A DNA stretch of 64,000 bases from a virus. The translations under genes and the position numbers were made by a program. Location: positions 1 to 64,000 of the IMG/VR virus record IMGVR_UViG_3300002026_000072, one strand, 5' to 3'. How positions within the stretch are numbered: the first letter of the stretch is position 1; each line of letters opens with the position of its first letter. Shown here piece after piece: positions 1,432 through 33,123 of this stretch. Under the pieces are notes generated by a model. That model worked only from the letters and a program-made list of their open reading frames with translations, ran no database searches and was not told the DNA's origin.

Positions 1432-1548
1432 ACACGTGGCATAGACCAGTGGAGGGTGTCGCCACGCTGCGGGTGCGTCTCGGCTCGCTATCCAACCCTC
1501 CATAGCGCAGGCTGGCGGCTACCTTGGTCGCTCGCCTGCGCACCTTTA

Positions 1549-1575: not shown

Positions 1576-1600
1576 AACCAGTTCTTTATAGGAGCCCATC

Positions 1601-2008: not shown

Positions 2009-2026
2009 CCTGCGCAGGAGTAGGTC

Positions 2027-6503: not shown

Positions 6504-6524
6504 CTCGACACGGAGCGCTGAGCT

Positions 6525-9144: not shown

Positions 9145-9160
9145 TCCGCCGACATTTACA

Positions 9161-9178
9161 ATCTAACTTAGATCGAAC
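9161..9178. promoter_or_regulatory. Palindrome motif copy (atctaacttagatcgaac)
   Basis: Intergenic, 11 nt upstream of the 9190 ATG and immediately 5' of the aggag RBS. Confidence 0.6.
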
Positions 9179-9189
9179 AGGAGCCGCGT

Positions 9190-11661
9190 ATGACCCCCGA
9201 ACAAGAAGCAGCACTCAAAGCAGCACGCGAGGCGAAGGCCGCAGCTCCCACCATGCGGGCCACCGCCGGCACGATGGGCGGGTTCGGCCCGCAGAGCGCA
9301 TACACACCACCGCAGCCCGCGGCCGGTCCGTCTGGGCCGCAGAGCGCGTACATGTCGCCCGGCCAGCAGGCGCCGAGTCAAATGCCGCCGCACCCGATGA
9401 ACCCCAAGCCGACGATCGGCAACATGGGGCCGGTGCCACCGTCTTCGATGCCTGCCGGGCCGGCGAGCGTGTACCCGAAGCCCACAGTCGCGACGATGCA
9501 GGCGCCGCCTCCGTCTTCGATGCCCGCAGGGCCGTCGAGCCCCTACATGCCGAAGCCGGAAGGGCCGTCGAGCCGGGTTATCAACGTGCCGCCGTCGTCC
9601 ATGCCTGCGGGGCCGTCGAGCCCGTACGACGGCGCCAACGGCCGCCCACGCAGCATGAGCAACGCCGCCGCGATGGGGCCGAACGCCGGCCCCGTGTACC
9701 AGTCCGTCCCCCGCAGGATCTTCAACGCAGCGGCCGAGGCGGTGCGAAACCCCGGGGCGATAGGGAAGGCGGCGATCGACGCTGCTGCGACCCCGGTCGG
9801 CGCCGCCACGATCCGCGCGGGCATGAGCGGCGCAGCCGCTATCCCCGACGCACTGGCGACGGGAAAGGTGCTCGACGCCCACATACGGGCCGGCTCGCCG
9901 ATTCAGGACACTGTCGTCGACACCGCCACCCAGGCGGCGGAGGGCGTCGGCAAACTCGGCATGGCCGGCGCCGGAGCTCTCGGCGGGGCCAAGCTCGGAG
10001 CTGCCGCAGGAACAATGCTTGCAGGGCCCCCCGGGACCATCATCGGCGGCGCCCTCGGCGGAGTTGTCGGAGGGGCGGCTGGGTACTTCTCAGCTGACGA
10101 GGGCATCAAGGGACTGCGGCAAGGGTTCGGCGTCACTGAAGCCTCGCCCGTCGACCGTTTGCCTACCCCCATCACCGCGGAAGCTGCGGCACAGGCCCGA
10201 GCGAACAAGACCGCTGAGACCTACGCCCGGCTGGGCATGAAGGAGCCTGCAGTCGGCGGTGGGGCAGGGCGCGGCGAGACCGGAGGCGACCCCCGCAAGA
10301 TCACCATGGAGGGCGGGTTCCCGCTTGAGCGCTACCTCGCTGGCTACGGCGAGGACGGCAGAGCGTTTGACCCGACGAGCGGGCGCGGTGGCGGCATCAA
10401 CAACCGCCTACCGACGGACCTGTCGATGCTGCAAGCGGGCGAGGTCTACAAGACCCAGGACCCGATCACTGGGCGCACGATCTACAGCGGGCGGGACGTC
10501 AAAGAGAACGCTGGCATCCGCGACGCCTGGAACGTAAAAACTGGGCAGCTGACGAACACCCCGAACGGCAACAACTTCATCCAGAACTACGACGCGAGCG
10601 GCAAGCCGGTCGCGTCGGCGAACCCGCTGCTCTCCACCGAGCCGAGTAAGGGCGGCATGAGAGAGATGGGCCTCGACCAGCAGCTCTCGGCCGCACGTCA
10701 GGCAGCAGCGGCTCGTGGCGACTTCGCGGCCCTCGACCAGTCCTACGGCAAGGCGCCCGCCGGAGTGTCCGGTGGTGGCGCCATCGCCGGCGGCTTCGGT
10801 GGCGGCAAGAGCTCCTGGCAGCAGGGCATCGACGACCGCAACGCCTCGTTCGAGCGCGACAAGATCATGCGCACGCCGGGCCTGTCGCCCTACGACGCTG
10901 CCCAGCTCGCGAACCAGTTCGACGACCGCCAGCAGCGCATGCGGGAAGCGACGATGCGTGACGAGACATCCCGCTACGGTGCAGACCTCGGTGCCAGCAC
11001 CAGCCGCTACGGCACAGACACGAACGCCGGCATCCATCGCGAGCACAACCAGATCCAGCGCGAGAACAACCAGATCACGCGCCAGATCGCTGCTGGGCAG
11101 CGCGACTACCAGCGCTACAAGGACAACATCGAGCTGGGCATGAAGGAGCGGGAGTACCAAGCAGAGCGCGGTGACAAGGACCTCTCGAACCGGCAGGCGG
11201 CCGAAGGCGCGCTGCAGAAGCAGCTGGAGTCGCGGTTCACGACATCAGGGATCACCGGCGACAAGGTCGACACCGCAGCCGTCGCGAGATACCGCCAAGG
11301 CATCGACCGCTCTGTTGCCCGCATCCCGGGCGCGAGGGGCGTGCACGATCTGGGGCCGCGCGCCACAGAGCAGCTCATCGCGGCAAGCGACCTGCTGGAG
11401 ACGCTGCGCGCTGACGGCAGCAACCTGAACCCGTTCAAGCCGGACTTCCTGAAGACCGTCGACCCGATCGACCTCATCGGTATCCAGCACGACCCGAAGA
11501 ACGACAACTACGTGATCACGAACCCCAAGAGCCGGGCGTACAAGCAAGTGATCCCGGGGCGGTATCTCAGGACTGAAGAAGCGAATCGCATCGAGTTTGG
11601 TGGCATGCGCGGCACGCCGACCAACAAGTACGACATGCTACAGATGGGATCAGGCCAATGA
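9190..11661 (+). CDS. Pro/Gly-rich internal virion or ejection-type protein (823 aa)
   Basis: Three PPSSMPAGPSSPY repeats, a Gly/Ala hydrophobic stretch and a Q/R-rich C-terminus. ATGA coupling to the giant ORF. Confidence 0.7.
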   Translation: MTPEQEAALKAAREAKAAAPTMRATAGTMGGFGPQSAYTPPQPAAGPSGPQSAYMSPGQQAPSQMPPHPMNPKPTIGNMGPVPPSSMPAGPASVYPKPTVATMQAPPPSSMPAGPSSPYMPKPEGPSSRVINVPPSSMPAGPSSPYDGANGRPRSMSNAAAMGPNAGPVYQSVPRRIFNAAAEAVRNPGAIGKAAIDAAATPVGAATIRAGMSGAAAIPDALATGKVLDAHIRAGSPIQDTVVDTATQAAEGVGKLGMAGAGALGGAKLGAAAGTMLAGPPGTIIGGALGGVVGGAAGYFSADEGIKGLRQGFGVTEASPVDRLPTPITAEAAAQARANKTAETYARLGMKEPAVGGGAGRGETGGDPRKITMEGGFPLERYLAGYGEDGRAFDPTSGRGGGINNRLPTDLSMLQAGEVYKTQDPITGRTIYSGRDVKENAGIRDAWNVKTGQLTNTPNGNNFIQNYDASGKPVASANPLLSTEPSKGGMREMGLDQQLSAARQAAAARGDFAALDQSYGKAPAGVSGGGAIAGGFGGGKSSWQQGIDDRNASFERDKIMRTPGLSPYDAAQLANQFDDRQQRMREATMRDETSRYGADLGASTSRYGTDTNAGIHREHNQIQRENNQITRQIAAGQRDYQRYKDNIELGMKEREYQAERGDKDLSNRQAAEGALQKQLESRFTTSGITGDKVDTAAVARYRQGIDRSVARIPGARGVHDLGPRATEQLIAASDLLETLRADGSNLNPFKPDFLKTVDPIDLIGIQHDPKNDNYVITNPKSRAYKQVIPGRYLRTEEANRIEFGGMRGTPTNKYDMLQMGSGQ

Positions 11662-14600
11662 TCAACGATCTCGCCAACCTCAACAAGCCTCTCAGTCAGG
11701 CTGAGCTCGACCGTGCTGCCGGGCAGCAGGGCACCGAGTTCGGCAAGGGCCTGCGGAGCACCACACTCAGCATGCGCTCCGGACTGAGCAACACCCTCGG
11801 TGCTGTCGGTGACGAGCTGGGTTACAGCGGCTACGCCAAAGACCAGTACCAGCAGGCTGATGCGCTGGGGCTGCGAGCGCAGAACGCTGCGCCCCGTGTC
11901 ACTTCGTTCCGCGACATCAACGGGGCGAATGACTTCGGTGACTGGGCCGCTGGCACCCTCGGCGGCCTGCTGCCGTCGGTGGCTGTGGGTGCTGGTGCTG
12001 GCCTGATGACCGGTGGCGCTGCCATCCCGGCCATGCTGGCAGGCACTGCAGCCTACACGCCGTTCGAGGTGGGCGAGACGATTGGCCGCCAGCGCGAAGC
12101 GGGCCAGCCGGTGAACCTGCGCGACGCAGCGCTGGGTGGCATCGGCTCAGCGGCGCTGCAGTCCATCGTGCCTGCCGGGCTGGCTGGCAGCTTGGCTGGC
12201 AAGGTGGCTCGGGCTCCGGGCAGCACGCTGGCAGGTGCCTCCATCAAGGGCGGCCTGATTGAAGGCGCAGGCGAAGGCGCAGGCGAGTACGCCAAGCAGC
12301 TGGGGTCCACCCAGACCCTGGACACGCTGGATCACGGCGCGGCGCTCGACGCCTTCGCCGGTGGCGTGCTGGGCGGCGGCATCATGGGCGGAGCGGGCCA
12401 TTTGGCCCAATACGCCCACCAGAACATCGACCGGGTAGGTGAGGGTGTCCAGGGCGTGAAAAACGCAGCCACGGGCCTCCTGACGAAGGCTGAGGGGGTC
12501 GCAGAGCGGGTCAAGGAGAGCCCGCTGGGCGGCGTGGCTGAGAAGGCCCAGAAGACCTACGAGGGCTACGACCTGGGCGACCTGGGCGCCAGCATGCGCA
12601 AGGTCTGGGACACCGCCCGCGAGAAGGCCACGGGCGTGGCCCAGAAGATCGCCGACAGCGAGGACATCATCGGCGACGCCAAGGAGTACGCCGGGCTGGC
12701 TGGCGACGCGCTCAAGAAGAAGCTCGTCGACGACGACGCGCTGCGCGTCCAGACCGCCGGTAGCTACGTCAAGGATCTGGCCCAGCGCAAGCTGAGCCCC
12801 GAGGACTTCGAGGCGGTGAACACCGCTGCGCAGAACCTCGGCGACAAGGCCAACCAAGCCACGGTGGCCGGGATCAAGATGGCGTCCGACGCCTTCGACC
12901 GCTCCAAGAGCTTCGTCAGCGGTCTACTGACGAAGGCCAGGACCAGGGCTGACGAGATGCAGGGCAAGAGCGCGGTCAAGAAGTCCGAGGACTACAGCGC
13001 CGCGCGGGACGCCATCATGACTGAGCTGATCCCCACGCTCAAGGAGATCAAGCCCGAGGCATTCCGCGGCCACCCGACAGAGGTGCAGCAGCACCTCAAC
13101 GAGCTCGGCGACACCATGCGCTACGTCATCCAGGACATGGCGAGCGGCACACCGGACCTCGCCACTGTGATCCAGGTTGCCAGCATGTTCCCCGGCCACG
13201 CGGACACCGTGTTCGACTCCGTGCGCCGCGTCATGGGCCTCGCCGGCCCCGAGGAGATGGCGAACATCTTCCGCGCCGTCAACACAGTGGCGGATGTGGA
13301 GCGCTCCCACGCCACGGTCGAAGAGGTGCAGCGCAAGCACCTCCGCCCCGATCTGGCGAAGGCTGTGCGGGCGAGTGACCTGCGGGACGAGCGCGACCTG
13401 CTGGTGAAGTGGGCAGACCAGCCGATCTCCATGAGCGGGGGCGTCGGTCAGCACATGCCTGACAGCACGGGCAAAGCTCAGAGCGCCAAGCAGGGGCAGC
13501 TCGACGAAGAGGCCAACCGCTTCAACGACCGCCAAGTGCGCACCGCGCTGGAGTACCGCTACGGCAAGGACGGCGCCGACGCCGTGATCGCTGCGGTCCA
13601 GGCCGGGCGTACCGGCTTCGCTGCCTCGCTCGCCAAGCAGTCAACGGGTCGCCGCGCCGGCGAGAACCAGCTGGAGCGTGGCCGCGTCAAGACTGACGAC
13701 GACGGCAACCCGATCGAGGACGCACCGCCGTACCAGCAGCACACGCTGGACGACGAAGTCGACATGACGGCGCCGACGATGCAGTACTACGGTGCCGGCA
13801 AGGGCGACACGATGTACCTGCACCCCAAGCACGACGACAACCCGTCGAAGTTTGGCCCGGCGGCCCAGCAGCGCATGGACAATCTGACGGGAAAGAATCC
13901 CGGCACGACGCTGCGCTACCTCTCGCCCAGTGAGCTCGGGCCTGACCACCCCTTCGTCAAGAAGCAGCGCGGCCTGCTGGAGAAGGCGGCGATGGCTCTC
14001 CTCGACACCGACGACACCAACGACCCGCAGGTTCAGGCGTACGTGGACGGCGAGATCGACAAGTACGTCGTCATCGGCCACGAGCGCTCCACCTCACCGC
14101 AGAAGATCAGCTATGACGAGCTGGGCGCTATGGGGCTCGACTCCGGCTACGGCTACAGCGAGGCGCGGCTCGACACCGTGGGCAAGGGCAAGTCGGGCAA
14201 CGCGATCCTCGACGCCGTGAAGATCACGAAGGCAATGGAGCGCCGCTTCGAGAAGGAGCAGATGCCGGCTGACAGCGCGGGGTATGTGTCGCGCAAGCTG
14301 CGCATGTTCCTCGAAGGCGTGGCGGCGGTGCAGGACCTGACCGGGCGTGCGTTCGACGTGCCTGACAGCACCGTCATCGCCACCGTGAACGACAAGCCGC
14401 TCACGCTGGGCAGAGCCCGCGCCATTGACCGGCAGGCCCGGCTGACTGACGCGGACAAGCTGACCGACGCTGAGTCTGCTGAGCGCGACCGGCTGAGTGC
14501 TGAGTACCGCACTGCGCTGCCTGACCGGTTCAACAAGGGCGACCGCAAGGTGGCGCGCGAGGCACACTACGAGGGGCGCAAGCTGGCCGCGGACCGCGCT

Positions 14601-17600
14601 GAGCGCCGGGCCTTCGAGCACACCACTGACGACATCCGCTCTGAGAGCGAGGATGAGTCTGGGTTCGACGGCATCATTGAGCGGGGCATCAACCGGCGCG
14701 ACACGCACTCTGCCAAGGGCAAGGACGGGTGGGTGGACGGCGAGGTCGTGAACACTCCCGATCGCCTCGGCGGCACTGAGCAGTCGACGACGCAGACGCC
14801 CCGCCAGCAGCGCATCAACGAGCTGCGCGGCGACCTGTCCATGCTGGAGGCGAAGCTCGAAGCCAAGACGGCCACGGATGCGGACCGCGTCCGCGTCAAG
14901 GCCATAAGCAACGAGATCGACGTCCTGGAGAAGGCAGCGCCCAGCTCGCTGGGCTCTGGCCGCCACGAGATCGACCCGTTCGGCCCCACCCACGACGCAC
15001 TGCGCGGCGAGGGCGAGGCACGCGTGACGAAGAGCGCCGGGCTACGGACTGAGATCTCCCGCGAGGGCAGCGAGGCGGGTGCCATCCACATCAACAGCGA
15101 CGGCAGCGCCAGAGAGACAGTCCGCACGCCGGTGGCGATGGGCAAGCCGCAGATCATGGCTGAGAAGCTGCGCGCCAGCACCTCAGCGGGAGCGCGGGCC
15201 GTGGGCGCCAAGCTGGAGGCTCTGCTCGACATGATGTCGGCTGCAGACGCCAAGGGCATCACCGGCTCCCGTGAGTTCCCGCGTGGTGTGGACATCCCCG
15301 ACAACAGCAACCGCACCAAGCTCGTGGTGGGCGGCAAGGTTGCAGACCCGCAGAGCCTGCGCACGGACCGCGCCCCCGGCGAGCTGACCACCCGCAAGGC
15401 CACCTCAGTCATGAACCGGGCTGACCGCGAAGCACTCTGGGCCGTGGGCGACATGACGAAGGCCAGCGACGTCGCCACTGTGGTGAACCGGCTGGCTGAG
15501 AAGTACCTCAACGGCGAGACCAAGAGCAAGAGCGCGCCTCCGCCGCCCGAGGAGTACACGCTCAAGGAGAAGCCAAGGAGCACCCCCGACCCAAAAGCCG
15601 TAGCCGCCAAGAAGGCGGCGCTCAGCGAGAAAGCCCGCTCTGGTGACGCCGGCCTGATCCGCGACCTGAGCACCAGCACTGACGCGAAGGGGCTGCAGCG
15701 CGCCGTCCAGCACCTGAACTCAGGCAAGGTGGACGCGAACACCGCCGCGGCGATCGAGGCGGCGAACACACGCCTGGGCGAGCTGGTGCGCGGCGACCCG
15801 AACGTGGCCTACGGGCTGGGGATCAAGAAGTACAGTCTCATCAGCTCAGACGAAGAAGGCGCACATGAACAACGACTCATCACCCGACTTGCTGAGGATC
15901 GAAGAGTTTGGCTTGCACATGACCCATCGGTATCAATGGATGGAGGAAAGTTCGGCAAGGATTCGTTCGGCCCTCTCGGCAGGGAATTCACATACTTCTT
16001 TGAGTACGACGGGCGCCGCACCCACACCGCCGTCGTTCCAGATCAATTTGTTGACACCCTCCGGCGCTACCTCTCCCGGGAAACTGACTTCGTAAAACGC
16101 ACGAACCTCATCGGCTACTTCGCTGCTCAGCACGTCGTCTACGACACCAAGACGAACGACGCGACGTCATTTGGACCGCGGGCCACAGACCCCAGCGGCA
16201 AGCTGCTGAGTTCAATGGGCGCTCTGGGCGACACGGGGCGGCAACTGTACGACGGCTCGCCCATTACCCGCGTTGAGGGCGTCTCGACCTTCCAGACCGC
16301 GCGCATGCTCGCCACTGCCCTCGCGTGGTCGAAGCACGCGCTCGACAAAGATCAGCTGGACATAAAGTGGGAGCGAATCTCAGGCGCGAACATCGGCAAG
16401 GTCGGCGAGGGCAAATTCAGCCGCCAAGACGCTCAGCAACTCACCCCGAACACCACCGGCCCGGTCAACCGTGCCGAGGTCGATGCGTTCTTCAAGCGCG
16501 TGGCGCCACACGTCAAGATCGCCTGGGCGAACATCCTCCACGCCGGCGAGTTCGAGCGCACCGGTGGCGGCAACGTGCCGATCGAGGACATCGTGCGCCT
16601 CAGCGTGCACAGCCTGAACCCGCTGAGCCCGGCCTACCACGAGGCGCTGCACGCGTTCTTCGCCAAGCTGACTGACCTCAAGCACGGGCAGATCATGGAC
16701 GTGCTGGAGCGCGCAGCGTCCTCAGCGCCGGTGATGAACCAGCTCAAGCGGCTGCTCAAGGATTCACCCGAGGCACTCAAGCAGCTCAACAACCCCGAAG
16801 AGCGCGCGGCCTACATGTACCAGTTCTGGGCGGCCGGCCAGCTCACCGTGGGCGAGCAGACCAAGAACGTCTTCCAGCGCATCGCTGACTTCCTGCGCTC
16901 AGTGCTGGGCATCTGGAGCAACGACGAGCGCGCCCTGCGCGTCATGGAGTACTTCCACAAGGGCGACTTCGCCAAGGACCTGACCGCACGCATGCCGCGC
17001 GACGTGGTGGCGAAGCGGGTGCTGGAGCCGGGGCGCAACGCCGCGATCGAGCAGGCCCGCAAGATGACTGAGCCGCTGCTGAACCTGGGCGAGGCGCTGC
17101 TGTCTGCCGGCGGTGAGCGGCTGCGCGACACCGGTGTGCCGGCCCTGCGCGAGCTGGCTGACGCGATCAAGCTGCACGGCACGAACGAGGGCGAGGACCC
17201 AGGCTACATGCCCGCTGCCCGCACTGAGCACGCGCAGCGCATGAACAAGCTGGCCCGTGACCTGCGCGGCACCAGCGAGGCGGCTCTGCACGCTGCCCTG
17301 GAGAGCCTGCAGAGCAAGAGCAACGACCCGGTCAAGGCACTGACTGACCCGGGCGACCGCGCCGCTGCCCACGTAGCCAAGCGGGTCATCCGCAAGCACC
17401 TGGACGACGCCTTCGACTACATGCGCGACGCCAAGGTCAAGGTCACGGACCTGGGCTACGGCAAGGACTACTTCCCACGCGTCTACGACGCTGCGTTCAT
17501 CAGCAGCCACCAGCAGGAGTTCCTGGCCGTGCTGCGCAAGCACAACGTCACCGGTGAGACCGACGTGATGAACAAGCTGATGACGAACAACGGCGCGGAG

Positions 17601-18974
17601 TTCAACGTCGAGGTGGACAAGCCCGGCATGCAGCACCTCAAGCCCCGCAAGCTGGCGCACATCCCCGACGACGAGCTGGCGCCCTTCATGCGCAAGGACA
17701 CGCTGAGCATCCTCAGCACCTACACCATGCAGGCCGCGCGCCGGGCAGAGTGGTCGCGCCGCTTCGGTGACGACGGGCTGCGCATCACGCAGCTGATGAT
17801 CCAGGCCAAGCGCGAGGGCGCTACCGACGCGCAGCTTGAGACGGCGCAGAAGTACATCCGCGCCGTGGACGGCACGCTGGGCGACACGATCAACCCCGAG
17901 GCTCGCCGCCTCATGGGCAACATGATGGTCTACCAGAACATCCGGCTGCTGCCCTTCGCTGTCTTCAGCTCGGTCGTGGACCCGATGGGTGTGAGCGTGC
18001 GCGGTGGTTCACTGGGCGATTCCTTCAACACGTTCAAGCGCGGACTCAAGGAGCTGGGCAAGAACTTCAAGAAGAACGCCACCGACGACGACATGACCCA
18101 GCTCGCTGCGGACATCGGCACGATCGACGACACCGCGCTCATGCACACCATGAGTACGCTCTACCTGCAGGGCATGGCGGGCAACACGGCGCAGAAGATC
18201 AACGACACGTTCTTCCGCTGGAACATGCTGGAGCAGTGGAACACCTCCATGCGCGTGGGCGCCACTGAGGCGGCGCTCAGCTTCCTCAAGAAGCACGCTG
18301 ATGGCAAGACCACCAAGCACAGCCAGCGCTGGCTCAATGAGCTGGGCCTGCAGCCCGGCGAGCTGCAGCTGCGCCCCGACGGCCGCATCAAGATCACTGA
18401 GGCCGACGGCCTGACCGCTGAGCAGTCGGCCAAGGTCAAGACCGCAATCAACCGGTGGGTGGATGGCGCCGTGCTGCGCCCTGACGCAGCGGACATGGCG
18501 ATCTGGATGAACGACCCGCACTTCGCGCTGATCGCGCACATGAAGAAGTTCGTGTTCAGCTTCCACCAGACGATCCTCAAGCGCGTGGTGCACGAGTACC
18601 AGAACGGCAACCACGCGCCGGCCATGGCGCTCGCAGGCTACGTGCCGATCATGATCGCGGCGGACCTCGCCAAGGGTCTGATCCAGGGCATGGGCGACCA
18701 GCCCGACTGGAAAGACAAGTGGGGCGTCGAAGATTACCTGTGGAGCGGCATCGAGCGCGCGGGCATCCTGGGCGTCAACCAGTTCGCCTTCGACGCACTG
18801 GGCGGCGGGATCGGCGAGCTTGCAGGTCCGACGTTGGAGCAGTTCGCGCAGGCTGCGGCGGTGCTGGGCGGGCGCGGAGAGTTCGCCCCGCTACTTGTGA
18901 AATCCATGCCCGCGAACGCCCTCTACGCCGAGGCCTTCAAGAGTGAGCCCGCGGAGTCCGCCCACATCGACTGA
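11658..18974 (+). CDS. giant multidomain virion protein (2438 aa) with an HExxH metallopeptidase-like motif
   Basis: Single uninterrupted ORF. N-terminal Gly/Ala hydrophobic segments. HEALH at 16638-16652. Position after the ejection-type proteins fits the polyvalent injected proteins described for phages and conjugative elements. Confidence 0.8.
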   Translation: MINDLANLNKPLSQAELDRAAGQQGTEFGKGLRSTTLSMRSGLSNTLGAVGDELGYSGYAKDQYQQADALGLRAQNAAPRVTSFRDINGANDFGDWAAGTLGGLLPSVAVGAGAGLMTGGAAIPAMLAGTAAYTPFEVGETIGRQREAGQPVNLRDAALGGIGSAALQSIVPAGLAGSLAGKVARAPGSTLAGASIKGGLIEGAGEGAGEYAKQLGSTQTLDTLDHGAALDAFAGGVLGGGIMGGAGHLAQYAHQNIDRVGEGVQGVKNAATGLLTKAEGVAERVKESPLGGVAEKAQKTYEGYDLGDLGASMRKVWDTAREKATGVAQKIADSEDIIGDAKEYAGLAGDALKKKLVDDDALRVQTAGSYVKDLAQRKLSPEDFEAVNTAAQNLGDKANQATVAGIKMASDAFDRSKSFVSGLLTKARTRADEMQGKSAVKKSEDYSAARDAIMTELIPTLKEIKPEAFRGHPTEVQQHLNELGDTMRYVIQDMASGTPDLATVIQVASMFPGHADTVFDSVRRVMGLAGPEEMANIFRAVNTVADVERSHATVEEVQRKHLRPDLAKAVRASDLRDERDLLVKWADQPISMSGGVGQHMPDSTGKAQSAKQGQLDEEANRFNDRQVRTALEYRYGKDGADAVIAAVQAGRTGFAASLAKQSTGRRAGENQLERGRVKTDDDGNPIEDAPPYQQHTLDDEVDMTAPTMQYYGAGKGDTMYLHPKHDDNPSKFGPAAQQRMDNLTGKNPGTTLRYLSPSELGPDHPFVKKQRGLLEKAAMALLDTDDTNDPQVQAYVDGEIDKYVVIGHERSTSPQKISYDELGAMGLDSGYGYSEARLDTVGKGKSGNAILDAVKITKAMERRFEKEQMPADSAGYVSRKLRMFLEGVAAVQDLTGRAFDVPDSTVIATVNDKPLTLGRARAIDRQARLTDADKLTDAESAERDRLSAEYRTALPDRFNKGDRKVAREAHYEGRKLAADRAERRAFEHTTDDIRSESEDESGFDGIIERGINRRDTHSAKGKDGWVDGEVVNTPDRLGGTEQSTTQTPRQQRINELRGDLSMLEAKLEAKTATDADRVRVKAISNEIDVLEKAAPSSLGSGRHEIDPFGPTHDALRGEGEARVTKSAGLRTEISREGSEAGAIHINSDGSARETVRTPVAMGKPQIMAEKLRASTSAGARAVGAKLEALLDMMSAADAKGITGSREFPRGVDIPDNSNRTKLVVGGKVADPQSLRTDRAPGELTTRKATSVMNRADREALWAVGDMTKASDVATVVNRLAEKYLNGETKSKSAPPPPEEYTLKEKPRSTPDPKAVAAKKAALSEKARSGDAGLIRDLSTSTDAKGLQRAVQHLNSGKVDANTAAAIEAANTRLGELVRGDPNVAYGLGIKKYSLISSDEEGAHEQRLITRLAEDRRVWLAHDPSVSMDGGKFGKDSFGPLGREFTYFFEYDGRRTHTAVVPDQFVDTLRRYLSRETDFVKRTNLIGYFAAQHVVYDTKTNDATSFGPRATDPSGKLLSSMGALGDTGRQLYDGSPITRVEGVSTFQTARMLATALAWSKHALDKDQLDIKWERISGANIGKVGEGKFSRQDAQQLTPNTTGPVNRAEVDAFFKRVAPHVKIAWANILHAGEFERTGGGNVPIEDIVRLSVHSLNPLSPAYHEALHAFFAKLTDLKHGQIMDVLERAASSAPVMNQLKRLLKDSPEALKQLNNPEERAAYMYQFWAAGQLTVGEQTKNVFQRIADFLRSVLGIWSNDERALRVMEYFHKGDFAKDLTARMPRDVVAKRVLEPGRNAAIEQARKMTEPLLNLGEALLSAGGERLRDTGVPALRELADAIKLHGTNEGEDPGYMPAARTEHAQRMNKLARDLRGTSEAALHAALESLQSKSNDPVKALTDPGDRAAAHVAKRVIRKHLDDAFDYMRDAKVKVTDLGYGKDYFPRVYDAAFISSHQQEFLAVLRKHNVTGETDVMNKLMTNNGAEFNVEVDKPGMQHLKPRKLAHIPDDELAPFMRKDTLSILSTYTMQAARRAEWSRRFGDDGLRITQLMIQAKREGATDAQLETAQKYIRAVDGTLGDTINPEARRLMGNMMVYQNIRLLPFAVFSSVVDPMGVSVRGGSLGDSFNTFKRGLKELGKNFKKNATDDDMTQLAADIGTIDDTALMHTMSTLYLQGMAGNTAQKINDTFFRWNMLEQWNTSMRVGATEAALSFLKKHADGKTTKHSQRWLNELGLQPGELQLRPDGRIKITEADGLTAEQSAKVKTAINRWVDGAVLRPDAADMAIWMNDPHFALIAHMKKFVFSFHQTILKRVVHEYQNGNHAPAMALAGYVPIMIAADLAKGLIQGMGDQPDWKDKWGVEDYLWSGIERAGILGVNQFAFDALGGGIGELAGPTLEQFAQAAAVLGGRGEFAPLLVKSMPANALYAEAFKSEPAESAHID

Positions 18975-29802: not shown

Positions 29803-30080
29803 GGCAGTCCTAGCTCCTTGCGCTTCTTGAGCGCTCTGTCGGTGTAAATCTGTTGGCCTTGGATCTTGGCTGTGACGACGGCCACACGCGCTTGCATGAA
29901 AGCATCGAGCGCTCCCAGTCTGGAGTCGAAGTTCTGTATTTGCTCGTTGTGGAAGACGATCTGACAGCGCCACAGATCGCCGCCTGACCACAGGCCGAGT
30001 ACGACCCCGTCGCGCATCAGCTCGAAGAGGCCGAACTCGTTGTCGGTGAGAACAAGCTCACTTGGAGTAGTTGACGTCAT
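29799..30080 (-). CDS. hypothetical protein (93 aa)
   Basis: ATG preceded by gaaggtgggt. Overlaps the polA stop by 23 nt. Confidence 0.6.
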   Translation of the reverse strand: MTSTTPSELVLTDNEFGLFELMRDGVVLGLWSGGDLWRCQIVFHNEQIQNFDSRLGALDAFMQARVAVVTAKIQGQQIYTDRALKKRKELGLP

Positions 30081-33000
30081 ACCCACCTTCACAGTTGAGA
30101 GGGATGTCCGGGCACCACTCCAGCGGCGTACGCATCACCTTTTGCATGAAGTCGAGCGCCTTGGGCGCCGCCGCCTTCTTCACGTGAGTGCTGACCTCAT
30201 CATGTGTGGTCATCACAACGCGGTACTTGCGGCTGATGTCGAGCATTTGCTTGCCGACGATGATCCGGGCCAGCGCCTGAACCAGGTTCTCGCACAACAA
30301 CCCGCCGTATATCTTCTTGCGGATGGTGCCGCTGGCGTAGGTCCACTCGTCCCAGCCCTGGTCATTGAGTCGGGTCTGGAGGTCGGGGTACTTGAGCGAC
30401 ATGCCGTTCGGGAGCCAGATCGTCTCCTTCTCCCAGCTGATCGGACCGTGCCGGCCTTCACGCCCGATCGCCATGTCAGCGATGATTTGCTTGCAGACCT
30501 CCCACCCGTCGCGGATCTTGTGGTTCTGGCGGCGGTAGGTGTTGATGATGGCTTGGCACTTGTCCAGCTCGAAGAACACCGGCGGGCCACCGAGGGCGCC
30601 CTTCGCCAGGGTGATCTGCAGCTTGGCTGCACCCATTTGGTACCCCAGCCCAAGCACGCAATTGAGCACCAAGGCGTTGGACGCCGTGAATCTAAAGCGC
30701 GGGCCAGCGTTTGCTATGTCATAGACGCGAGCCGTGCGGCGATAGCTCGCCAGTTCTTCCGCCTGTCGATCACTGCAAATTTCGCCTCCAGAATGATCTG
30801 TGTAGCAGTCATCCCGCGTTTGACCCGTCGATAAGTGGCCGTTACTGAGAACGGGCTCCTCCACTCCAAGATGTGCACAGGCCCGGTTTGAGTCTGAACG
30901 TAGACCGACGCTCGCTTGTTGCGGTTCTGTTGCGTTCGTGTCGCGAGCCGCAAATTCTTGGGGCTGTAGTGCCCGTCGTTGTCGATTCGGTCGATCTCCA
31001 CCCCCTTGTAATTCGGGTGAGGCAGGTTCTTCGACACCCAAAGGATGAAGCTCATTCGGGTCTTGAACATGCACTTGATGCCCCGCCCACCGTAGCTCGC
31101 CCATTGTGGATTCGCTGGGTTGGTGCATCGAGCTTGGATCGCGTCGTATCGGCGTCCTAACACCCCCGCATTGGGTACAGGCCGGCGACCGTTCTTCAGG
31201 AACGAGGTCGTCTTTCCGTTCTTGAGATTGTTCAGATAGACCAGCTTCGTGACCCCAGAGAGCGAGCAGTGCGCCATGACGTACGGAGAGCCGTTTACGC
31301 GGTGTATCTGCGACGACGTGATCGTCACTGAACCAAAGGTTTGCCCGACCAGCTCCGGTCTTTTGGAGCCTGACCATCTCGGATGCTGCTTGCCCGAGCG
31401 GAATGATCCGTCCGCATGTCGTGAAGACTTGGTGGTCTGGGGTCGCTGTGAGTCCGTCATAGGTGATGACCTCCTTGATGCCTTGGTCGATGACCCCTGC
31501 ATGATGTACCCATTCTAACCCATCCCATAACCGATCTAACTTAGATATGTCTTGAATAGGGACTAGCCCCCGGTCTGTGAGAATCAGCTCGCCTTCAGCT
31601 ACGCAGACCTTGCCAACGAAGCGCTCGGTCTTGTCCTCTTTCGTGATCTCGCGGCCGTAGATCGAGTCGCCGAACTTGCAGTACGCGTCGCGGTCCTTGC
31701 CGCGGGCGAGGCCCATCGTCTTCTCGTTCCACGTGTCCGCAGCCTTGAAAGACTCCAGCAGGTCGTGCTGGCCCCAGAGCCACGCGTTGACTCGGGCCTC
31801 AATCTGGCCTGAGTCCACTGTGCAGATCATGTGCTCAGGCGCGGCTAGGATGGACAGGCGCAGTTCCCCACCTCGGGTGAGGTTCTGCATGTTCATTTTG
31901 TTGTTGCCGCCCCAGCGCCCGGTGTGCGCCCGGTAGTACGCGTAGCCCACGGGCAGGTTCCAGCCATTGGCGCCAGCCTTGAGGAAGCGCTCAGCCCGGG
32001 TTACGTTCGTCGTGGACTTCACGGCCAGCCGGCAGTCAACCAGGGCGCGCAGCCGGTCTTGCCGGGCAGCGAGCTTCTTCACGTCAGCGATCTTGGCGAG
32101 GTTCAGACCGGTGCTGAGTGCCTCGACATCGTCGGGCAGGTTGACGAACTTCTCGTCGTCCTTGGCGAACGCGAAGGTGTACTTGTCCGCATCGTCACGC
32201 TCGTCCTTGTGCTTCTTCATCCAGGCCGGACTGACTTTGCGCGGCGGTTCCACGCCCTCAGCGCGCAGCAGGTCAGCGAACTTGTCGTTGCTGCCCACCA
32301 CCCGCTTGGTGATCAGGATGTCACGCTCCTCGCCGACCAGTGCCTTCTCAGCCTTGCCTTTGAGGACGTCGGTGTACTGGCTGGTATCGACCAGCGAGGT
32401 CAGCATGACCCGACGCCGCTCGACCTCGCGGTCGTACTCAGCCTGGACGCGGGGCAGATCGAGCTTGAGCACCGGGTCGCAGAACATGCGGACGGTGAGG
32501 TCGATCAGGTCCATCTCATCGCGCGGCATCTGCGGCACCATGAGCTTGAAGATCTCGAACATCTCATCGACATCGACGCCGCAGTACTCAGCGCCGATGT
32601 CGTAGATCTTCTGGGCGACGAGCTGCTTGTAGCTCAGCCCCTTCATCTGTTCGAGGGAGCCTTTGAGCTTACCGCCACGACCATAGAAGACGGATACTTC
32701 GTCGAGCCCAGCTCCGATCTCGTTGCTGTGCAGACCCCGTGCCATGGACAGACTGCAGTAGTACTTGGCAGGCACCACACCGTAGTGATGGCTGAGGATG
32801 AACCCGTCGAACTGGGTGTTATGACACAGGAGAGCATGTGTGCTCCAAGGGATCGTCTTGAGGAACGCCTTGATCTTCGGGCCGGGAATCACGACCCGCT
32901 TCTTCTTGCCGACCTTGACACCCATCATCAGCGCCTCGAAGCGCTCGTCGCGGATGTACTCGCTGGTGCTGAGCTTGCTCAGCGTGTAGTCGGTGTCGTA

Positions 33001-33123
33001 GAAGGTCTCAAAGTCGATGCAGACCAGCCGGTCCCAATCGACCTGATCGGTCGGGAAGTCCGGGCGCTTGAACGTCGGCTTGGGTGGTGCCGGGTGGCGG
33101 CGAGTCGCGGTGGCCCAGGACAT
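30058..33123 (-). CDS. family-A DNA polymerase with 3'-5' exonuclease domain, interrupted by an intein
   Basis: CIDFETFYD and HNTQFDGFIL (exo), VDSGQIEARV (motif A), TTHDEV (motif C). Motif B is split: ERFVGKV / CVLGLGYQMGAAKL. Exteins sum to 706 aa. Confidence 0.92.
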   Translation of the reverse strand: MSWATATRRHPAPPKPTFKRPDFPTDQVDWDRLVCIDFETFYDTDYTLSKLSTSEYIRDERFEALMMGVKVGKKKRVVIPGPKIKAFLKTIPWSTHALLCHNTQFDGFILSHHYGVVPAKYYCSLSMARGLHSNEIGAGLDEVSVFYGRGGKLKGSLEQMKGLSYKQLVAQKIYDIGAEYCGVDVDEMFEIFKLMVPQMPRDEMDLIDLTVRMFCDPVLKLDLPRVQAEYDREVERRRVMLTSLVDTSQYTDVLKGKAEKALVGEERDILITKRVVGSNDKFADLLRAEGVEPPRKVSPAWMKKHKDERDDADKYTFAFAKDDEKFVNLPDDVEALSTGLNLAKIADVKKLAARQDRLRALVDCRLAVKSTTNVTRAERFLKAGANGWNLPVGYAYYRAHTGRWGGNNKMNMQNLTRGGELRLSILAAPEHMICTVDSGQIEARVNAWLWGQHDLLESFKAADTWNEKTMGLARGKDRDAYCKFGDSIYGREITKEDKTERFVGKVCVAEGELILTDRGLVPIQDISKLDRLWDGLEWVHHAGVIDQGIKEVITYDGLTATPDHQVFTTCGRIIPLGQAASEMVRLQKTGAGRANLWFSDDHVVADTPRKRLSVRHGALLALWGHEAGLSEQSQERKDDLVPEERSPACTQCGGVRTPIRRDPSSMHQPSESTMGELRWAGHQVHVQDPNELHPLGVEEPASPELQGGGDRPNRQRRALQPQEFAARDTNATEPQQASVGLRSDSNRACAHLGVEEPVLSNGHLSTGQTRDDCYTDHSGGEICSDRQAEELASYRRTARVYDIANAGPRFRFTASNALVLNCVLGLGYQMGAAKLQITLAKGALGGPPVFFELDKCQAIINTYRRQNHKIRDGWEVCKQIIADMAIGREGRHGPISWEKETIWLPNGMSLKYPDLQTRLNDQGWDEWTYASGTIRKKIYGGLLCENLVQALARIIVGKQMLDISRKYRVVMTTHDEVSTHVKKAAAPKALDFMQKVMRTPLEWCPDIPLNCEGGYDVNYSK
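30714..31502 (-). CDS. HNH homing endonuclease ORF nested in the intein, one nucleotide out of the polymerase frame
   Basis: LVGQTFGSVTI, YGGRGIKCMF, GVEIDRIDNDGHYSPKNLRLATRTQQNRN. G/C-rich third positions in this frame but not in the pol frame. The true start is uncertain; the first ~50 aa overprint the Hint N-domain. Confidence 0.7.
   Translation of the reverse strand: MQGSSTKASRRSSPMTDSQRPQTTKSSRHADGSFRSGKQHPRWSGSKRPELVGQTFGSVTITSSQIHRVNGSPYVMAHCSLSGVTKLVYLNNLKNGKTTSFLKNGRRPVPNAGVLGRRYDAIQARCTNPANPQWASYGGRGIKCMFKTRMSFILWVSKNLPHPNYKGVEIDRIDNDGHYSPKNLRLATRTQQNRNKRASVYVQTQTGPVHILEWRSPFSVTATYRRVKRGMTATQIILEAKFAVIDRRKNWRAIAARLASMT
31534..31546. promoter_or_regulatory. Palindrome motif copy embedded in intein coding sequence (atctaacttagat)
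   Basis: Encodes ISKLD in the pol frame. Ends 30 nt upstream of the HNH-frame ATG at 31502. Confidence 0.55.

What the first reader, a model, noticed from the sequence alone, without database searches (positions are those of the whole stretch)
30661..31605. PolA motif-B intein whose interior is an intact HNH endonuclease gene in a different reading frame
Seen, the intein: the PolA ORF is split between ...ERFVGKV and CVLGLGYQMGAAKL (motif B) by exactly 315 codons. These begin CVAEGELILTDRG, contain TPDH (block B) and end VYDIANAGPRFRFTASNALVLN followed by Cys. The two exteins sum to 706 aa.

Seen, the two frames: the central ~250 codons read in the polymerase frame are low-complexity (e.g. GRANLWFSDDHVVADTPRKRLSVRHGALLALWGHEAGLSEQSQERKDD) with mixed third positions. 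The frame offset by one nt (30714-31502) has G/C-rich third positions and encodes a textbook HNH homing endonuclease (LVGQTFGSVTI, YGGRGIKCMF, GVEIDRIDNDGHYSPKNLRLATRTQQNRN, HTH-like tail).

Seen, the junctions: the HNH frame becomes meaningful exactly where the Hint N-domain ends (~31355), and its TAG lies inside intein block F. The polymerase frame stays open across the whole HNH gene, so the intein can still be translated and, in principle, spliced.

Interpretations (inference):
- (a) overprinting: a mini-intein whose linker is the off-frame reading of an independently expressed homing endonuclease
- (b) expression of a Hint-HNH fusion by programmed frameshifting
- (c) a formerly in-frame HNH intein that suffered two compensating indels very recently
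- (d) two sequencing errors

Caveat: long off-frame ORFs are common in this GC-rich genome, so the open polymerase frame alone is weak evidence for selection. I am not aware of a described intein with a nested out-of-frame HEG.
Basis: partly seen in the sequence, partly recalled or inferred. Interest (0 to 1): 0.85.

Follow-up and report, generated by a model that had tools for sequence, protein, structure and literature searches.

The report
Intein carrying an out-of-frame nuclease gene
The phage's DNA polymerase gene is interrupted by a self-splicing protein insert (an intein) whose middle also encodes, one base out of step, a separate homing-endonuclease-like gene; this layout is real and conserved in over a hundred related phages and prophages, but similar cases are already on record.

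Summary
The family A polymerase ORF (30058-33123, minus strand) carries a 315-codon intein (30661-31605) at motif B. A 248-262 codon ORF in the +1 frame (30714-31460/31502) encodes an HNH-like endonuclease.

It is not a sequencing error or a recent pair of indels. About 100 full-length homologues (GC 37-62%) were examined:
- The nuclease is always +1 to the splicing blocks.
- The polymerase frame has no stops, where 3-30 are expected.
- T is never used at a nuclease third position where it would create a polymerase-frame stop.

Against the closest relative, dN/dS is 0.12 in the nuclease frame in the centre and 0.14-0.19 in the polymerase frame at the N-terminal end. A strong Shine-Dalgarno site (AAGGAGG) and an ATG lie inside the splicing-domain coding sequence and are conserved. 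This favours independent translation over frameshifting.

The closest polymerase alleles lack the intein, and deletion-derived mini-inteins exist, as in a homing cycle.

It is not unprecedented. APSE-1 records annotate an HNH ORF (P46) nested in the +1 frame of its polymerase intein. Preprints from 2025-2026 describe out-of-frame endonucleases in inteins.

"Textbook HNH" is overstated. There is no Pfam or PDB match, and an invariant Asp-Arg replaces the catalytic Asp-His.

The parts
30058..33123 (-). Family A DNA polymerase precursor ORF (1021 aa, stop included), made of N-extein, intein and C-extein
   Evidence: PF00476; phrog_17, E = 1.8e-54; the exact protein is in NCBI/JGI
31606..33123 (-). 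N-extein (506 aa), ending ...DKTERFVGKV in polymerase motif B
   Evidence: Intein-free alleles read ERFVGKV|CVLGLG without a break.
30661..31605 (-). Intein, 315 codons in the polymerase frame (Cys1 ... Asn315)
   Evidence: It is exactly the insert relative to intein-free alleles.
31336..31605 (-). N-terminal lobe of the splicing (Hint) domain, intein residues 1 to about 90, with block A Cys1 and block B TPDH (31432-31443)
   Evidence: HMM match scoring 118. This stretch is retained in 110-184 aa mini-inteins. Polymerase-frame dN/dS is 0.14-0.19.
30727..31335 (-). Polymerase-frame 'linker' (about 203 codons). It is the -1 reading of the HNH gene, kept stop-free but otherwise unconserved.
   Evidence: Amino-acid identity is 0.23-0.24 in the polymerase frame against 0.42-0.46 in the HNH frame. 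Polymerase-frame dN/dS is 2.06. The AF2 model shows no secondary structure and pLDDT about 30-38. It is deleted in mini-inteins.
30661..30726 (-). C-terminal lobe of the splicing domain (blocks F and G: VYDIANAGPRFRFTASNALVLN), followed by the +1 Cys of the C-extein
   Evidence: The wobble position returns to polymerase-frame position 3.
30058..30660 (-). C-extein (200 aa plus stop), starting CVLGLGYQMG (rest of motif B)
30714..31460 (-). Nested HNH-like endonuclease gene in the +1 frame (248 aa from ATG 31460; TAG at 30714-30716). The frame is open back to ATG 31502.
   Evidence: homologues called as 248-aa ORFs; pLDDT 89.7; dN/dS 0.12
31470..31476 (-). Shine-Dalgarno sequence AAGGAGG, 9 nt upstream of ATG 31460. 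It is written in the polymerase-frame codons Lys-Glu-Val of the Hint domain.
   Evidence: -12.1 kcal/mol; family mean -8.9 against background -2.3; GAG preferred 34:12
30717..31370 (-). Confidently folded part of the HNH-like protein (residues 31-248): N-terminal beta domain, YGGRGI helical region, beta-beta-alpha core and C-terminal helical (helix-turn-helix-like) tail
30918..30998 (-). Beta-beta-alpha core EIDRIDNDGHYSPKNLRLATRTQQNRN. D157, R158, Y165 and N169 are invariant and N181 nearly so.
   Evidence: Weak PHROG matches to HNH and endonuclease VII families fall on this stretch.

Best explanation
This is a two-gene mobile element written in two reading frames of one DNA stretch.

In the polymerase frame, ribosomes read through the whole 945-nt insert. 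The two ends of the insert (about 90 plus 22 residues) form a class 1 splicing domain. That domain excises the insert, including about 200 residues of meaningless linker, and rejoins motif B of the polymerase.

In the +1 frame, the same mRNA carries an independent gene for an HNH-like, I-HmuI-type homing endonuclease. It is translated from its own ribosome-binding site and ATG (31470-31476 and 31460), which are embedded in the coding sequence of the splicing domain. It ends at a TAG inside block F.

The endonuclease is presumed to cut intein-free polymerase alleles during co-infection, so that repair copies the whole insert in. The intein keeps that insertion harmless.

The window's copy belongs to a large family, all built in the same +1 way.

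Shown here: the anatomy, its conservation, frame-specific purifying selection, exact stop avoidance, the conserved SD and ATG, and the sporadic presence of the intein.

Inferred: protein splicing, internal initiation, nuclease activity and homing.
For: 1. Same arrangement in every full-length homologue. These comprise 57 distinct IMG/VR sequences, 33 bacterial-genome loci, Streptococcus Javan phages, Gardnerella phage AB1 and a MAG contig. In all of them the N- and C-terminal Hint blocks share one frame, the HNH is at +1, and there are 0 polymerase-frame stops. GC ranges from 0.37 to 0.62.

2. Open polymerase frame. Shuffles that keep the HNH protein predict 3-30 polymerase-frame stops per sequence, with P(0) = 0 of 2000 for most and 0.001-0.006 for the window. 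T at HNH third positions is 0.000 before AA/AG/GA and 0.261 elsewhere. In exteins the figures are 0.223 and 0.249.

3. The constrained frame switches along the insert. The most variable codon position is polymerase position 3 at the ends and polymerase position 1 (HNH position 3) in the centre. Against the closest relative L180 (945 nt, no gaps), dN/dS is 0.14 and 0.19 in the polymerase frame over Hint-N, and 0.12 in the HNH frame over the centre, where the polymerase frame gives 2.06.

4. Translation start. ATG at intein nt 145 is present in 41 of 57 sequences. Its anti-SD duplex averages -8.9 kcal/mol against -2.3 for other internal ATGs; 83% against 4.7% reach -7 or lower, Mann-Whitney p = 1e-22. 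The window has AAGGAGG at -12.1. The Glu codon is GAG 34:12 here, against 1182:1473 in exteins. Sequences without this ATG have another start with an SD at nt 103-187.

5. Fold. The HNH frame folds confidently (pLDDT 89.7, beta-beta-alpha at residues 155-180). Its disordered 30-residue leader lies within the stretch that overlaps Hint block B. The polymerase-frame centre has no predicted structure.

6. Mobility signs.
- About 35 of 46 relatives of the window's polymerase lack the intein at an intact ERFVGKV|CVLGLG site, including the closest at 74-77% identity.
- Mini-inteins with the HNH deleted occur at the same site.
- Some pairs have HNH identity far above extein identity, 0.52 against 0.22.
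- Intein GC3 (0.54-0.73) is below extein GC3 (0.86).
Against: There is no expression, splicing or cleavage data for any member.

- Nuclease assignment. It rests on PHROG labels and BFVD names. There is no Pfam HNH hit in 64 members, no PDB sequence or fold match, and an invariant Asp-Arg stands where HNH enzymes have the metal-ligand Asp and the general-base His.
- Zinc ribbon. The window's subclade has lost the CxxC...CxxC cysteines present in most relatives.
- Start codon. The ATG at nt 145 is missing in about a quarter of sequences, so the start is not fixed.
- Inheritance. Extein and HNH identities correlate at 0.95, so inheritance is mostly vertical, and active homing in this lineage is not shown.
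- Splicing residues. The penultimate intein residue is Leu, not His.
- Hint fold. The model was uninformative, with a 6-sequence alignment and pLDDT 39.7. The SD statistics are not corrected for shared ancestry.
Confidence: 0.8

Rival explanations
1. Programmed +1 (or -2) ribosomal frameshifting near the end of the Hint N-lobe makes an N-extein-HintN-HNH fusion. The endonuclease is therefore not translated independently.
For: The HNH homology begins where the Hint N-lobe ends. The junction DNA (ACC GGA GNT GGT CGG) is conserved in both frames. SD-like sequences can also stimulate frameshifting (established for prfB and dnaX).
Against: - No slippery motif is shared by the window, Javan113 and Gardnerella AB1 at the junction.
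- There is no Rfam frameshift element and no conserved RNA structure.
- The SD sits 8-9 nt before a conserved ATG, which is initiation geometry. Sequences that lack that ATG have other SD-plus-start pairs at different positions.
- A fusion would end at the TAG in block F, lack the C-terminal splicing blocks, and carry 506 residues of dead polymerase.
- Related inteins hold the same nuclease in the +2 frame, which would need a different shift.
Confidence: 0.06
2. A formerly in-frame HNH intein suffered two compensating indels very recently in this phage.
For: In-frame HNH inteins are known (cited in bioRxiv 10.1101/2025.01.02.630785). One database protein (P0125) appears to read from Hint-N straight into HNH.
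Against: - The same +1 offset is present in every full-length homologue examined, at 30-75% HNH identity and across several bacterial phyla. No in-frame member was found.
- P0125 comes from a long-read contig in which the polymerase is broken into four ORFs, the HNH has an internal stop, and Hint-C is in yet another frame.
- Stop avoidance is exact, and dN/dS is 0.12 in the HNH frame.
Confidence: 0.01
3. Two sequencing or assembly errors in this contig created the apparent frame difference.
For: None beyond prior plausibility for metagenomic contigs.
Against: Independent assemblies and isolate phage genomes (Javan113, Gardnerella AB1, the L180 MAG, complete Gardnerella, Megasphaera and other genomes) show the same frames and lengths. 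L180 aligns to the window's intein over 945 nt without a single gap.
Confidence: 0.005
4. The nested ORF is conserved but is not (or no longer) a homing nuclease. It could be a DNA-binding or otherwise co-opted protein, or be catalytically inactive in this lineage. In that case the intein is now inherited vertically.
For: - An invariant Arg replaces the HNH general-base His.
- There is no Pfam or PDB nuclease match.
- The window's subclade lost the zinc-ribbon cysteines.
- Extein and HNH identity correlate at 0.95.
Against: - Asp, Asn and Asn at the metal-site positions and the beta-beta-alpha topology are conserved.
- Presence and absence are sporadic among close polymerase alleles, and mini-intein decay products occur, as expected of a homing cycle.
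- Some intein/extein pairs are discordant.
- Free-standing relatives are common in phages, where they are annotated as homing endonucleases.
Confidence: 0.12

Closest known systems
Hamiltonella phage APSE-1 DNA polymerase P45 intein with nested ORF P46 (NC_000935; genome paper van der Wilk et al. 1999, which I could not read)
   Same: Related Hint N-domain (45% identity over 65 aa). The same YGGRGI...DRI(D/N)N...N HNH-like family lies in the +1 frame on the same strand inside a family A polymerase intein. RefSeq annotates the nested ORF as 'HNH endonuclease'.
   Different: The insertion site is different (..TYGGKS|C, about 110 residues downstream of motif B). The annotated P46 is a truncated 140-aa version of the open frame. 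Whether the literature ever discussed it as an out-of-frame homing gene could not be checked.
[quoted passage not shown]
   Same: A same-strand endonuclease ORF in another frame lies between the splicing blocks. The in-frame reading has no recognisable structure. The authors propose origin by invasion of an intein by a free-standing endonuclease gene.
   Different: The nuclease is described as endonuclease VII-like and is in 'frame 3'. The hosts are actinophage proteins (the DNA polymerase listed is Pol III alpha); family A polymerase is not listed. No SD/ATG or selection analysis appears in the sections read.
Salmonella Jerseyvirus (SETP3-like) 'intein-containing DNA polymerase precursor', and a CLGPDT... 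intein in relatives of the window's polymerase
   Same: The motif-B insertion site is the same (R..GK.|C). The Hint domain is distantly related, the nested HNH-like family is the same, and the polymerase frame is open.
   Different: The nuclease is in the +2 frame, not +1. The Hint domain is more divergent, and the nuclease has a different N-terminus and a coiled-coil-like tail.
Antisense LAGLIDADG endonuclease in the cyanobacterial DnaX intein (Gorbalenya 1998 and Gogarten 2002, as cited; bioRxiv 10.64898/2026.09.14.751524, title only)
   Same: The endonuclease gene lies inside the intein's DNA but is not part of the intein polypeptide.
   Different: Opposite strand, LAGLIDADG family, cellular host gene.
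ShiLan 'hidden' out-of-frame HNH insertion in mycobacteriophage methylases (PMC11855218; also Applejack gp54/55, PMC12613952)
   Same: An out-of-frame HNH ORF is nested in a host gene whose own frame stays open across it.
   Different: There are no splicing blocks, so the insert is thought to stay in the protein. The authors detected no ribosome-binding site and proposed leaderless initiation from a GTG.
Canonical bifunctional inteins (in-frame LAGLIDADG or HNH domain) and group I introns with an endonuclease ORF in a loop
   Same: The logic is the same: a splicing element neutralises the insertion and an endonuclease drives homing. The decay to mini-inteins follows the same life cycle.
   Different: In canonical inteins the nuclease is a domain of the same polypeptide. 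Here the relation is intron-like (a separate ORF) but achieved by overprinting within a translated sequence.

Membership tests
Intein (class 1 Hint splicing domain) | N-terminal nucleophile (Cys/Ser) at position 1 | tested here: met
   Cys1 (TGC, 31603-31605). It is invariant in the three-sequence alignment, and nearly every intein recovered starts with Cys.
Intein (class 1 Hint splicing domain) | Block B Thr-x-x-His | tested here: met
   TPDH at residues 55-58 (31432-31443). T..H is conserved in the family alignment.
Intein (class 1 Hint splicing domain) | Blocks F and G ending in Asn, followed by a Cys/Ser/Thr at +1 | tested here: met
   VYDIANAGPRFRFTASNALVLN|C. The terminal Asn and the +1 Cys are present. 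The penultimate residue is Leu, not His, as in the close relatives L003, L004 and L180.
Intein (class 1 Hint splicing domain) | The insert is exactly delimited relative to uninterrupted alleles, in a conserved site of the host protein | tested here: met
   About 35 intein-free alleles read ERFVGKV|CVLGLG(F/Y)QMG without a break. The site is polymerase motif B.
Intein (class 1 Hint splicing domain) | Hint fold | tested here: inconclusive
   No Pfam match. The AF2 model from a 6-sequence alignment has pLDDT 39.7; beta strands are predicted in residues 7-99, at low confidence.
Intein (class 1 Hint splicing domain) | Protein splicing activity | not testable with these tools
   Inferred only, because the insert splits the motif B (O-helix) region of the only family A polymerase gene found in the window.
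HNH (beta-beta-alpha-metal) homing endonuclease, I-HmuI-like | Significant match to curated HNH profiles | tested here: inconclusive
   PHROG families labelled HNH endonuclease match at E = 2.6e-25, and phrog_1035 (endonuclease VII) at 0.006. There is no Pfam HNH hit in any of 64 members, no NCBIfam hit and no PDB sequence hit.
HNH (beta-beta-alpha-metal) homing endonuclease, I-HmuI-like | Catalytic Asp-His (general base) at the end of strand 1 | tested here: not met
   D157-R158 is invariant in 64 of 64 sequences. Arg stands where His is expected; that placement is my own reading against the HNH motif recalled from memory.
HNH (beta-beta-alpha-metal) homing endonuclease, I-HmuI-like | Structural Asn and metal-ligand Asn/His on a beta-beta-alpha scaffold | tested here: met
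   N169 is invariant and N181 is at least 90% conserved. The model has strands 155-158 and 170-173 and a helix at 175-180.
HNH (beta-beta-alpha-metal) homing endonuclease, I-HmuI-like | Fold similarity to a solved HNH nuclease | tested here: not met
   Foldseek against the PDB gave a best E of 0.2 and no nuclease among the top 50. BFVD matches are predicted viral proteins named HNH or HTH homing endonuclease or AP2, at E down to 2e-13.
HNH (beta-beta-alpha-metal) homing endonuclease, I-HmuI-like | Site-specific cleavage of the empty allele; homing | not testable with these tools
   Only indirect signs are available: sporadic distribution, mini-intein decay products and discordant intein/extein similarity.
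Overprinted (same-strand overlapping) gene pair | Both frames open far beyond chance | tested here: met
Overprinted (same-strand overlapping) gene pair | Purifying selection attributable to each frame | tested here: met
   The wobble position switches between frames. dN/dS is 0.12 in the HNH frame over the centre and 0.14-0.19 in the polymerase frame over Hint-N.
Overprinted (same-strand overlapping) gene pair | Independent translation signals for the nested gene | tested here: met
   SD plus ATG are conserved, and codon choice is biased towards the SD. Use of these signals in vivo is untested.
Family A DNA polymerase (host gene) | Pfam DNA_pol_A and phage polymerase profile match | tested here: met
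   PF00476 matches at E = 4.9e-07, below the gathering score because the intein splits the domain. phrog_17 matches at 1.8e-54. Homologues carry PF00476.

The most novel reading that the evidence does not exclude
This is a member of an old, widespread and so far undescribed class of family A polymerase inteins.

- Extent: at least 258 IMG/VR contigs and prophages in several bacterial phyla.
- Architecture: the endonuclease has never been a domain of the intein. It is a separate cistron, overprinted on the linker and started from a ribosome-binding site encoded inside the splicing domain.
- Variants: sister lineages carry the same nuclease family in the +2 frame and at a second polymerase site. 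This implies repeated capture of free-standing HNH-like genes by mini-inteins.

If so, the class would be natural evidence for the 'splicing element first, endonuclease invades later' origin of mobile inteins. It would also show that a Hint domain can splice around about 200 residues of non-evolved polypeptide.
Probability: 0.55. Interest if true: 0.65.

Novelty: new member of a known kind. Interest (0 to 1): 0.55.

Why it matters
- **Annotation.** Gene callers report only the polymerase here, so the nested nuclease is missing from this contig's annotation and from the Javan and Gardnerella phage records. Dozens to hundreds of phage and prophage genomes therefore carry an unannotated, selected gene.
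- **Origin of mobile inteins.** A family in which the nuclease is always a separate overlapping cistron, in +1 or +2 frames and at two sites of the same gene, supports an intron-like origin: a free-standing homing gene lodged in a splicing element.
- **Evolution of overlapping genes.** It is a clean natural example of how overprinting is maintained. All polymerase-frame stops start with T, which falls on the nuclease's third codon position. One frame can therefore evolve freely while the other is kept open by synonymous choices alone.
- **Protein engineering.** Inteins that tolerate a 200-residue unstructured insert, and compact HNH-like site-specific nucleases with an unusual Asp-Arg centre, are both of interest.

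Tried and rejected
- Megablast of the polymerase gene against 50,697 phage records found no near relative.
- Pfam and NCBIfam on the HNH frame and on the intein gave nothing.
- PDB sequence searches with 3- and 64-sequence profiles gave only chance hits.
- Foldseek of the HNH model against the PDB gave no significant hit, so the HNH fold could not be confirmed against a solved structure.
- AF2 of the polymerase-frame intein was too shallow to say anything about the Hint fold. The protein search with the intein returned only 5 hits.
- A group I/II intron or a known frameshift element was rejected: the Rfam E-value scan of 30000-33200 was empty.
- An SD-sequestering hairpin was rejected: there was no consensus structure in 24 sequences.
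- The scan of 30000-33400 found no sigma-70-like promoter on either strand, so none lies inside polA.
- P0125 looked like an in-frame Hint-HNH fusion. It turned out to be a frameshift-riddled long-read contig or pseudogene.
- The papers on APSE-1 (PubMed 10489345) and on the cyanobacterial dnaX intein (2026 preprint) could not be read.


Full report
**1. The observation**

The minus strand of the window holds a 1021-codon ORF (30058-33123) that matches family A DNA polymerases. Between ...DKTERFVGKV and CVLGLGYQMG lie exactly 315 codons (30661-31605). They begin CVAEGELILT, contain TPDH and end NALVLN before a Cys. The exteins sum to 706 aa.

One base downstream in phase, a second frame is open from 31502 to a TAG at 30714-30716, which falls inside block F. 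Within the intein:
- the polymerase frame has no stop;
- the +1 frame has stops only in the first 30 codons and at codon 296;
- the third frame has 14 stops.

The +1 product matches PHROG families labelled HNH endonuclease (E = 2.6e-25). It has no Pfam or NCBIfam match.

**2. Not an artefact and not recent**

A tblastn search with the +1 product hit full-length inside the annotated DNA polymerase I genes of Streptococcus phages (Javan113 and others) and of Gardnerella phage vB_Gva_AB1. In both genomes:
- the polymerase ORF runs through an insert with the same splicing blocks (CIAEGELVLT...TATPDH...YDIRNAGP.HRFTVS.KLVHN|C);
- the nuclease homology sits in the same +1 phase;
- the DNA is only 43-44% GC.

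A pattern search with the intein alignment found 258 relatives in IMG/VR, of which 80 were fetched. The same search found 46 in bacterial genomes, including Gardnerella, Anaerococcus, Peptoniphilus, Megasphaera, Streptococcus, Aggregatibacter and spirochaete MAGs.

HMMs for the N-terminal splicing blocks, the nuclease core and the C-terminal blocks were run on frame translations. In all 57 distinct full-length viral sequences and all 33 full-length genomic ones, the two splicing lobes share a frame, the nuclease is +1, the polymerase frame has zero stops, and the nuclease ORF is intact at about 200-350 aa. No intact in-frame member was seen. The one apparent fusion (P0125) comes from a long-read contig in which the polymerase is broken into four ORFs, the nuclease has an internal stop, and Hint-C is in a third frame. 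Interpretations (c) and (d) are thus excluded.

**3. Both frames are under selection**

Synonymous codons were reshuffled while keeping each nuclease protein. This predicts 3-18 polymerase-frame stops with the region's own codons, or 2.5-30 with extein codon usage. None of 2000 shuffles was stop-free for most sequences. For the window, 5-6 stops are expected and P(0) is 0.001-0.006.

The mechanism of stop avoidance is visible. A polymerase-frame stop needs T at a nuclease third position followed by AA, AG or GA. T is used at 0.0% of such positions and at 26% of other third positions. Exteins use T at 22% in the same context.

Across the family, the most variable codon position switches along the insert:

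| Intein nt | Mean pairwise identity at polymerase codon positions 1/2/3 |
|---|---|
| 1-144 | 0.69 / 0.81 / 0.39 |
| 145-258 | 0.64 / 0.68 / 0.49 |
| 259-879 | about 0.37 / 0.55 / 0.60 |
| 880-945 | 0.77 / 0.81 / 0.45 |

In the centre, polymerase position 1 is the nuclease's third position. Amino-acid identity there is 0.42-0.46 in the nuclease frame and 0.23-0.24 in the polymerase frame. At the ends the relation is reversed.

The closest relative with DNA is L180, a MAG contig with the same 945 nt and no gaps. Differences and dN/dS against it are:

| Segment | Differences at polymerase positions 1/2/3 | dN/dS |
|---|---|---|
| Hint-N (1-144) | 6 / 3 / 19 | 0.14 (polymerase frame) |
| Hint-N with HNH leader (145-258) | 4 / 5 / 12 | 0.19 (polymerase frame) |
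| Centre (259-879) | 102 / 38 / 31 | 0.12 (nuclease frame); 2.06 (polymerase frame) |
| Hint-C (880-945) | 3 / 4 / 14 | not computable (pS saturated) |

**4. Where the splicing domain ends**

Mini-inteins of the same family (110-184 aa) occur at the same polymerase site. They keep polymerase-frame residues 1 to about 87 (through LLQTG.G) plus blocks F and G, and have lost the nuclease. So intein residues about 91-293 of the window (30727-31335) are dispensable linker.

The nuclease ORF overlaps real Hint coding sequence for about 115 nt at its 5' end and about 13 nt at its 3' end.

The AF2 model of the nuclease frame is confident: pLDDT 89.7, with residues 31-248 mostly above 85. Only the first 30 residues are disordered, and they lie within the part that overlaps Hint block B. 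The polymerase-frame model has no secondary structure across residues about 100-268 (pLDDT about 30-38). That alignment was shallow, so the Hint fold itself was not confirmed.

**5. How the nuclease is probably made**

In the window, AAGGAGG (31470-31476) lies 9 nt before ATG 31460. Both are written in the polymerase-frame codons ...Lys-Glu-Val-Ile-Thr-Tyr-Asp....
- The ATG (from TAT GAN) is present in 41 of 57 sequences.
- Its predicted anti-SD pairing averages -8.9 kcal/mol, against -2.3 for other internal ATGs. 83% against 4.7% reach -7 or lower.
- The Glu and Lys codons prefer GAG and AAG beyond extein usage, even in AT-rich genomes.
- Sequences lacking this ATG have another start with an SD between nt 103 and 187.
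- Gene callers on short contigs independently-aa and 230-aa ORFs for close homologues.

No slippery motif is shared at the junction, no Rfam element was found, and no conserved RNA structure was found. I therefore favour internal initiation on the polymerase mRNA. I give programmed frameshifting about 6%.

**6. Signs of mobility**

Of 46 IMG/VR relatives of the window's spliced polymerase, about 35 lack any intein and read ERFVGKV|CVLGLG(F/Y)QMG. These include the closest, at 74-77% identity.

The others show that this gene is a hotspot:
- the same +1 intein (L130);
- a different intein (CLGPDT...) at the same site, with the same nuclease family in the +2 frame (L122, L125, L128, L129);
- an intein at a second site about 110 residues downstream, with the nuclease at +1 (L118, L131).

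Extein and nuclease identities correlate strongly (r = 0.95), so inheritance is mostly vertical. Some pairs are discordant: L003 and L004 against L009 have 0.22 extein identity and 0.52 nuclease identity. In the window, intein GC3 (0.54 in Hint-N, 0.73 in the nuclease) is well below extein GC3 (0.86). Together with the mini-inteins, this fits the invade, persist, decay cycle. Homing itself is inferred.

**7. What kind of nuclease**

The family conserves YGGRGI...(E/L)(I/L)DRIDN.G.Y.PGN(L/I)R...N..N. The model has strands at 155-158 and 170-173 and a helix at 175-180, a beta-beta-alpha arrangement.

D157, N169 and N181 fit the metal-ligand Asp, structural Asn and metal-ligand Asn of I-HmuI-type HNH enzymes. 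That comparison is from my own knowledge, not a tool result. The general-base His is replaced by an invariant Arg158, and Tyr165 is also invariant.

None of 64 members matches a Pfam HNH model. There is no PDB sequence or fold match. The best structural neighbours are predicted viral proteins named HNH endonuclease, HTH homing endonuclease or AP2-domain protein.

The window's subclade (with L003, L004, L009 and L180) has replaced the CxxC...CxxC zinc-ribbon cysteines. The substituted segment is itself conserved within the subclade.

I file it as 'HNH-like, works like a homing endonuclease' and not as a proven HNH member.

**8. Comparison with what is known**

- **APSE-1.** The Hint domain is related to that of the APSE-1 polymerase intein. 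The RefSeq record annotates P46 'HNH endonuclease' nested in P45 in the +1 frame, and it belongs to the same nuclease family. That intein sits at the second polymerase site.
- **Salmonella Jerseyviruses.** These are annotated 'intein-containing DNA polymerase precursor'. They carry the nuclease in the +2 frame at the motif-B site.
- **Actinophage inteins.** A 2025 preprint describes actinophage inteins with antisense LAGLIDADG or VSR-like endonucleases and a same-strand 'frame 3' endonuclease VII-like endonuclease. It proposes invasion of inteins by free-standing endonuclease genes.
- **Other cases.** A 2025 paper describes out-of-frame HNH insertions in methylases that lack splicing blocks. 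A 2026 preprint title reports an out-of-frame endonuclease in the cyanobacterial dnaX intein.

I found no paper treating the family A polymerase family described here, its size, its +1 and +2 variants or the embedded ribosome-binding site. The library is limited, however, and the 1999 APSE-1 paper could not be read.

**9. Verdict**

The arrangement is a new member of a kind already recorded, not a new kind.

Interest is moderate (0.55). A specialist would not be astonished in 2026. The family's breadth, the exactness of the stop avoidance, the SD written inside a Hint domain and the atypical Asp-Arg centre are, however, directly testable and useful for the question of how inteins acquired endonucleases.

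Noticed in passing
L084/L085 (Salmonella Jerseyvirus polA, intein about 2501-3400); L122, L125, L128, L129: A related intein sits at the same motif-B site and carries the same HNH-like family in the +2 frame instead of +1. The polymerase frame is open, and an ATG with an SD of about -6 to -7 kcal/mol lies inside the Hint-N coding region.
   Followed up: partly
L083 (APSE-1) 2501-3353; L086 (Caulobacter phage GB2A); L118, L131; second Hint hit in L007/L008 at 3937-4095: There is a second intein insertion site in family A polymerases (..TYGGK|C, about 110 residues after motif B), with the nuclease nested at +1. L007 and L008 carry both a decayed motif-B mini-intein and a second-site intein in one gene.
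   Followed up: partly
L073 1984-4020 (intein 3001-3516): A mini-intein of the same Hint family sits in a different host protein, a DEAD/SNF2-type helicase, next to motif VI (QQVGRVLRPSPGKTD|C...N|CLILDHAGNT). This suggests a switch of host gene.
   Followed up: partly
window 30918-30998 and alignment A3: The nuclease family has an invariant Asp-Arg where HNH enzymes have Asp-His, plus invariant Tyr165, Arg111-Cys112 and Tyr123-Gly124. No Pfam model covers this large phage family (314 homologues at E < 1e-5).
   Followed up: partly
window about 31180-31290 (HNH residues about 57-94); L003, L004, L009, L180: This subclade has replaced the four or five zinc-ribbon cysteines (CxxC...CxxC) found in most relatives with a conserved Cys-poor segment (C.L.G.TKL.YLNNLKNGKTTSFL.NG).
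   Followed up: partly
window 30661-31605 against its flanks: Intein GC is 0.564 against 0.616 for the exteins. Third-position GC is 0.54-0.73 against 0.86. The intein's composition is therefore not adapted to this 62% GC genome.
   Followed up: yes
window 36973-38094 (-): A separate 373-aa gene matches phrog_1314 'HNH endonuclease' (E = 1.6e-92) in the replication module, between the helicase (33730-35223) and an ATPase (39139-40143).
   Followed up: no
window 11658-18974 (+): A very large ORF of 2438 aa lies in the + strand gene block (4..18974), opposite the minus-strand replication genes. It was not examined.
   Followed up: no
L179 (ENA ERZ21878447 ctg26867l) 263-2945 and 3270-4576: This copy of the polymerase and intein is riddled with frameshifts (four ORFs, a stop inside the nuclease). 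It lies next to a PhdYeFM/PIN toxin-antitoxin pair and a resolvase. It is either a decaying prophage or a product of long-read indel errors.
   Followed up: partly
L016 1041-1295; L050/L051 5243-5689; L071 2195-2449; L096 1103-1360: Additional matches to the same HNH-like family lie outside the intein, near the polymerase gene. They look like free-standing copies in the same genomes.
   Followed up: no
MK448670.1 (Javan113), MW387018.1 (Gardnerella AB1), and the window's own source contig (JFJP01...): The nested nuclease ORF is not annotated in these public records, and the window's exact ORF is absent from the 15-billion-protein collection. APSE-1 annotates only a truncated 140-aa version.
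   Followed up: yes
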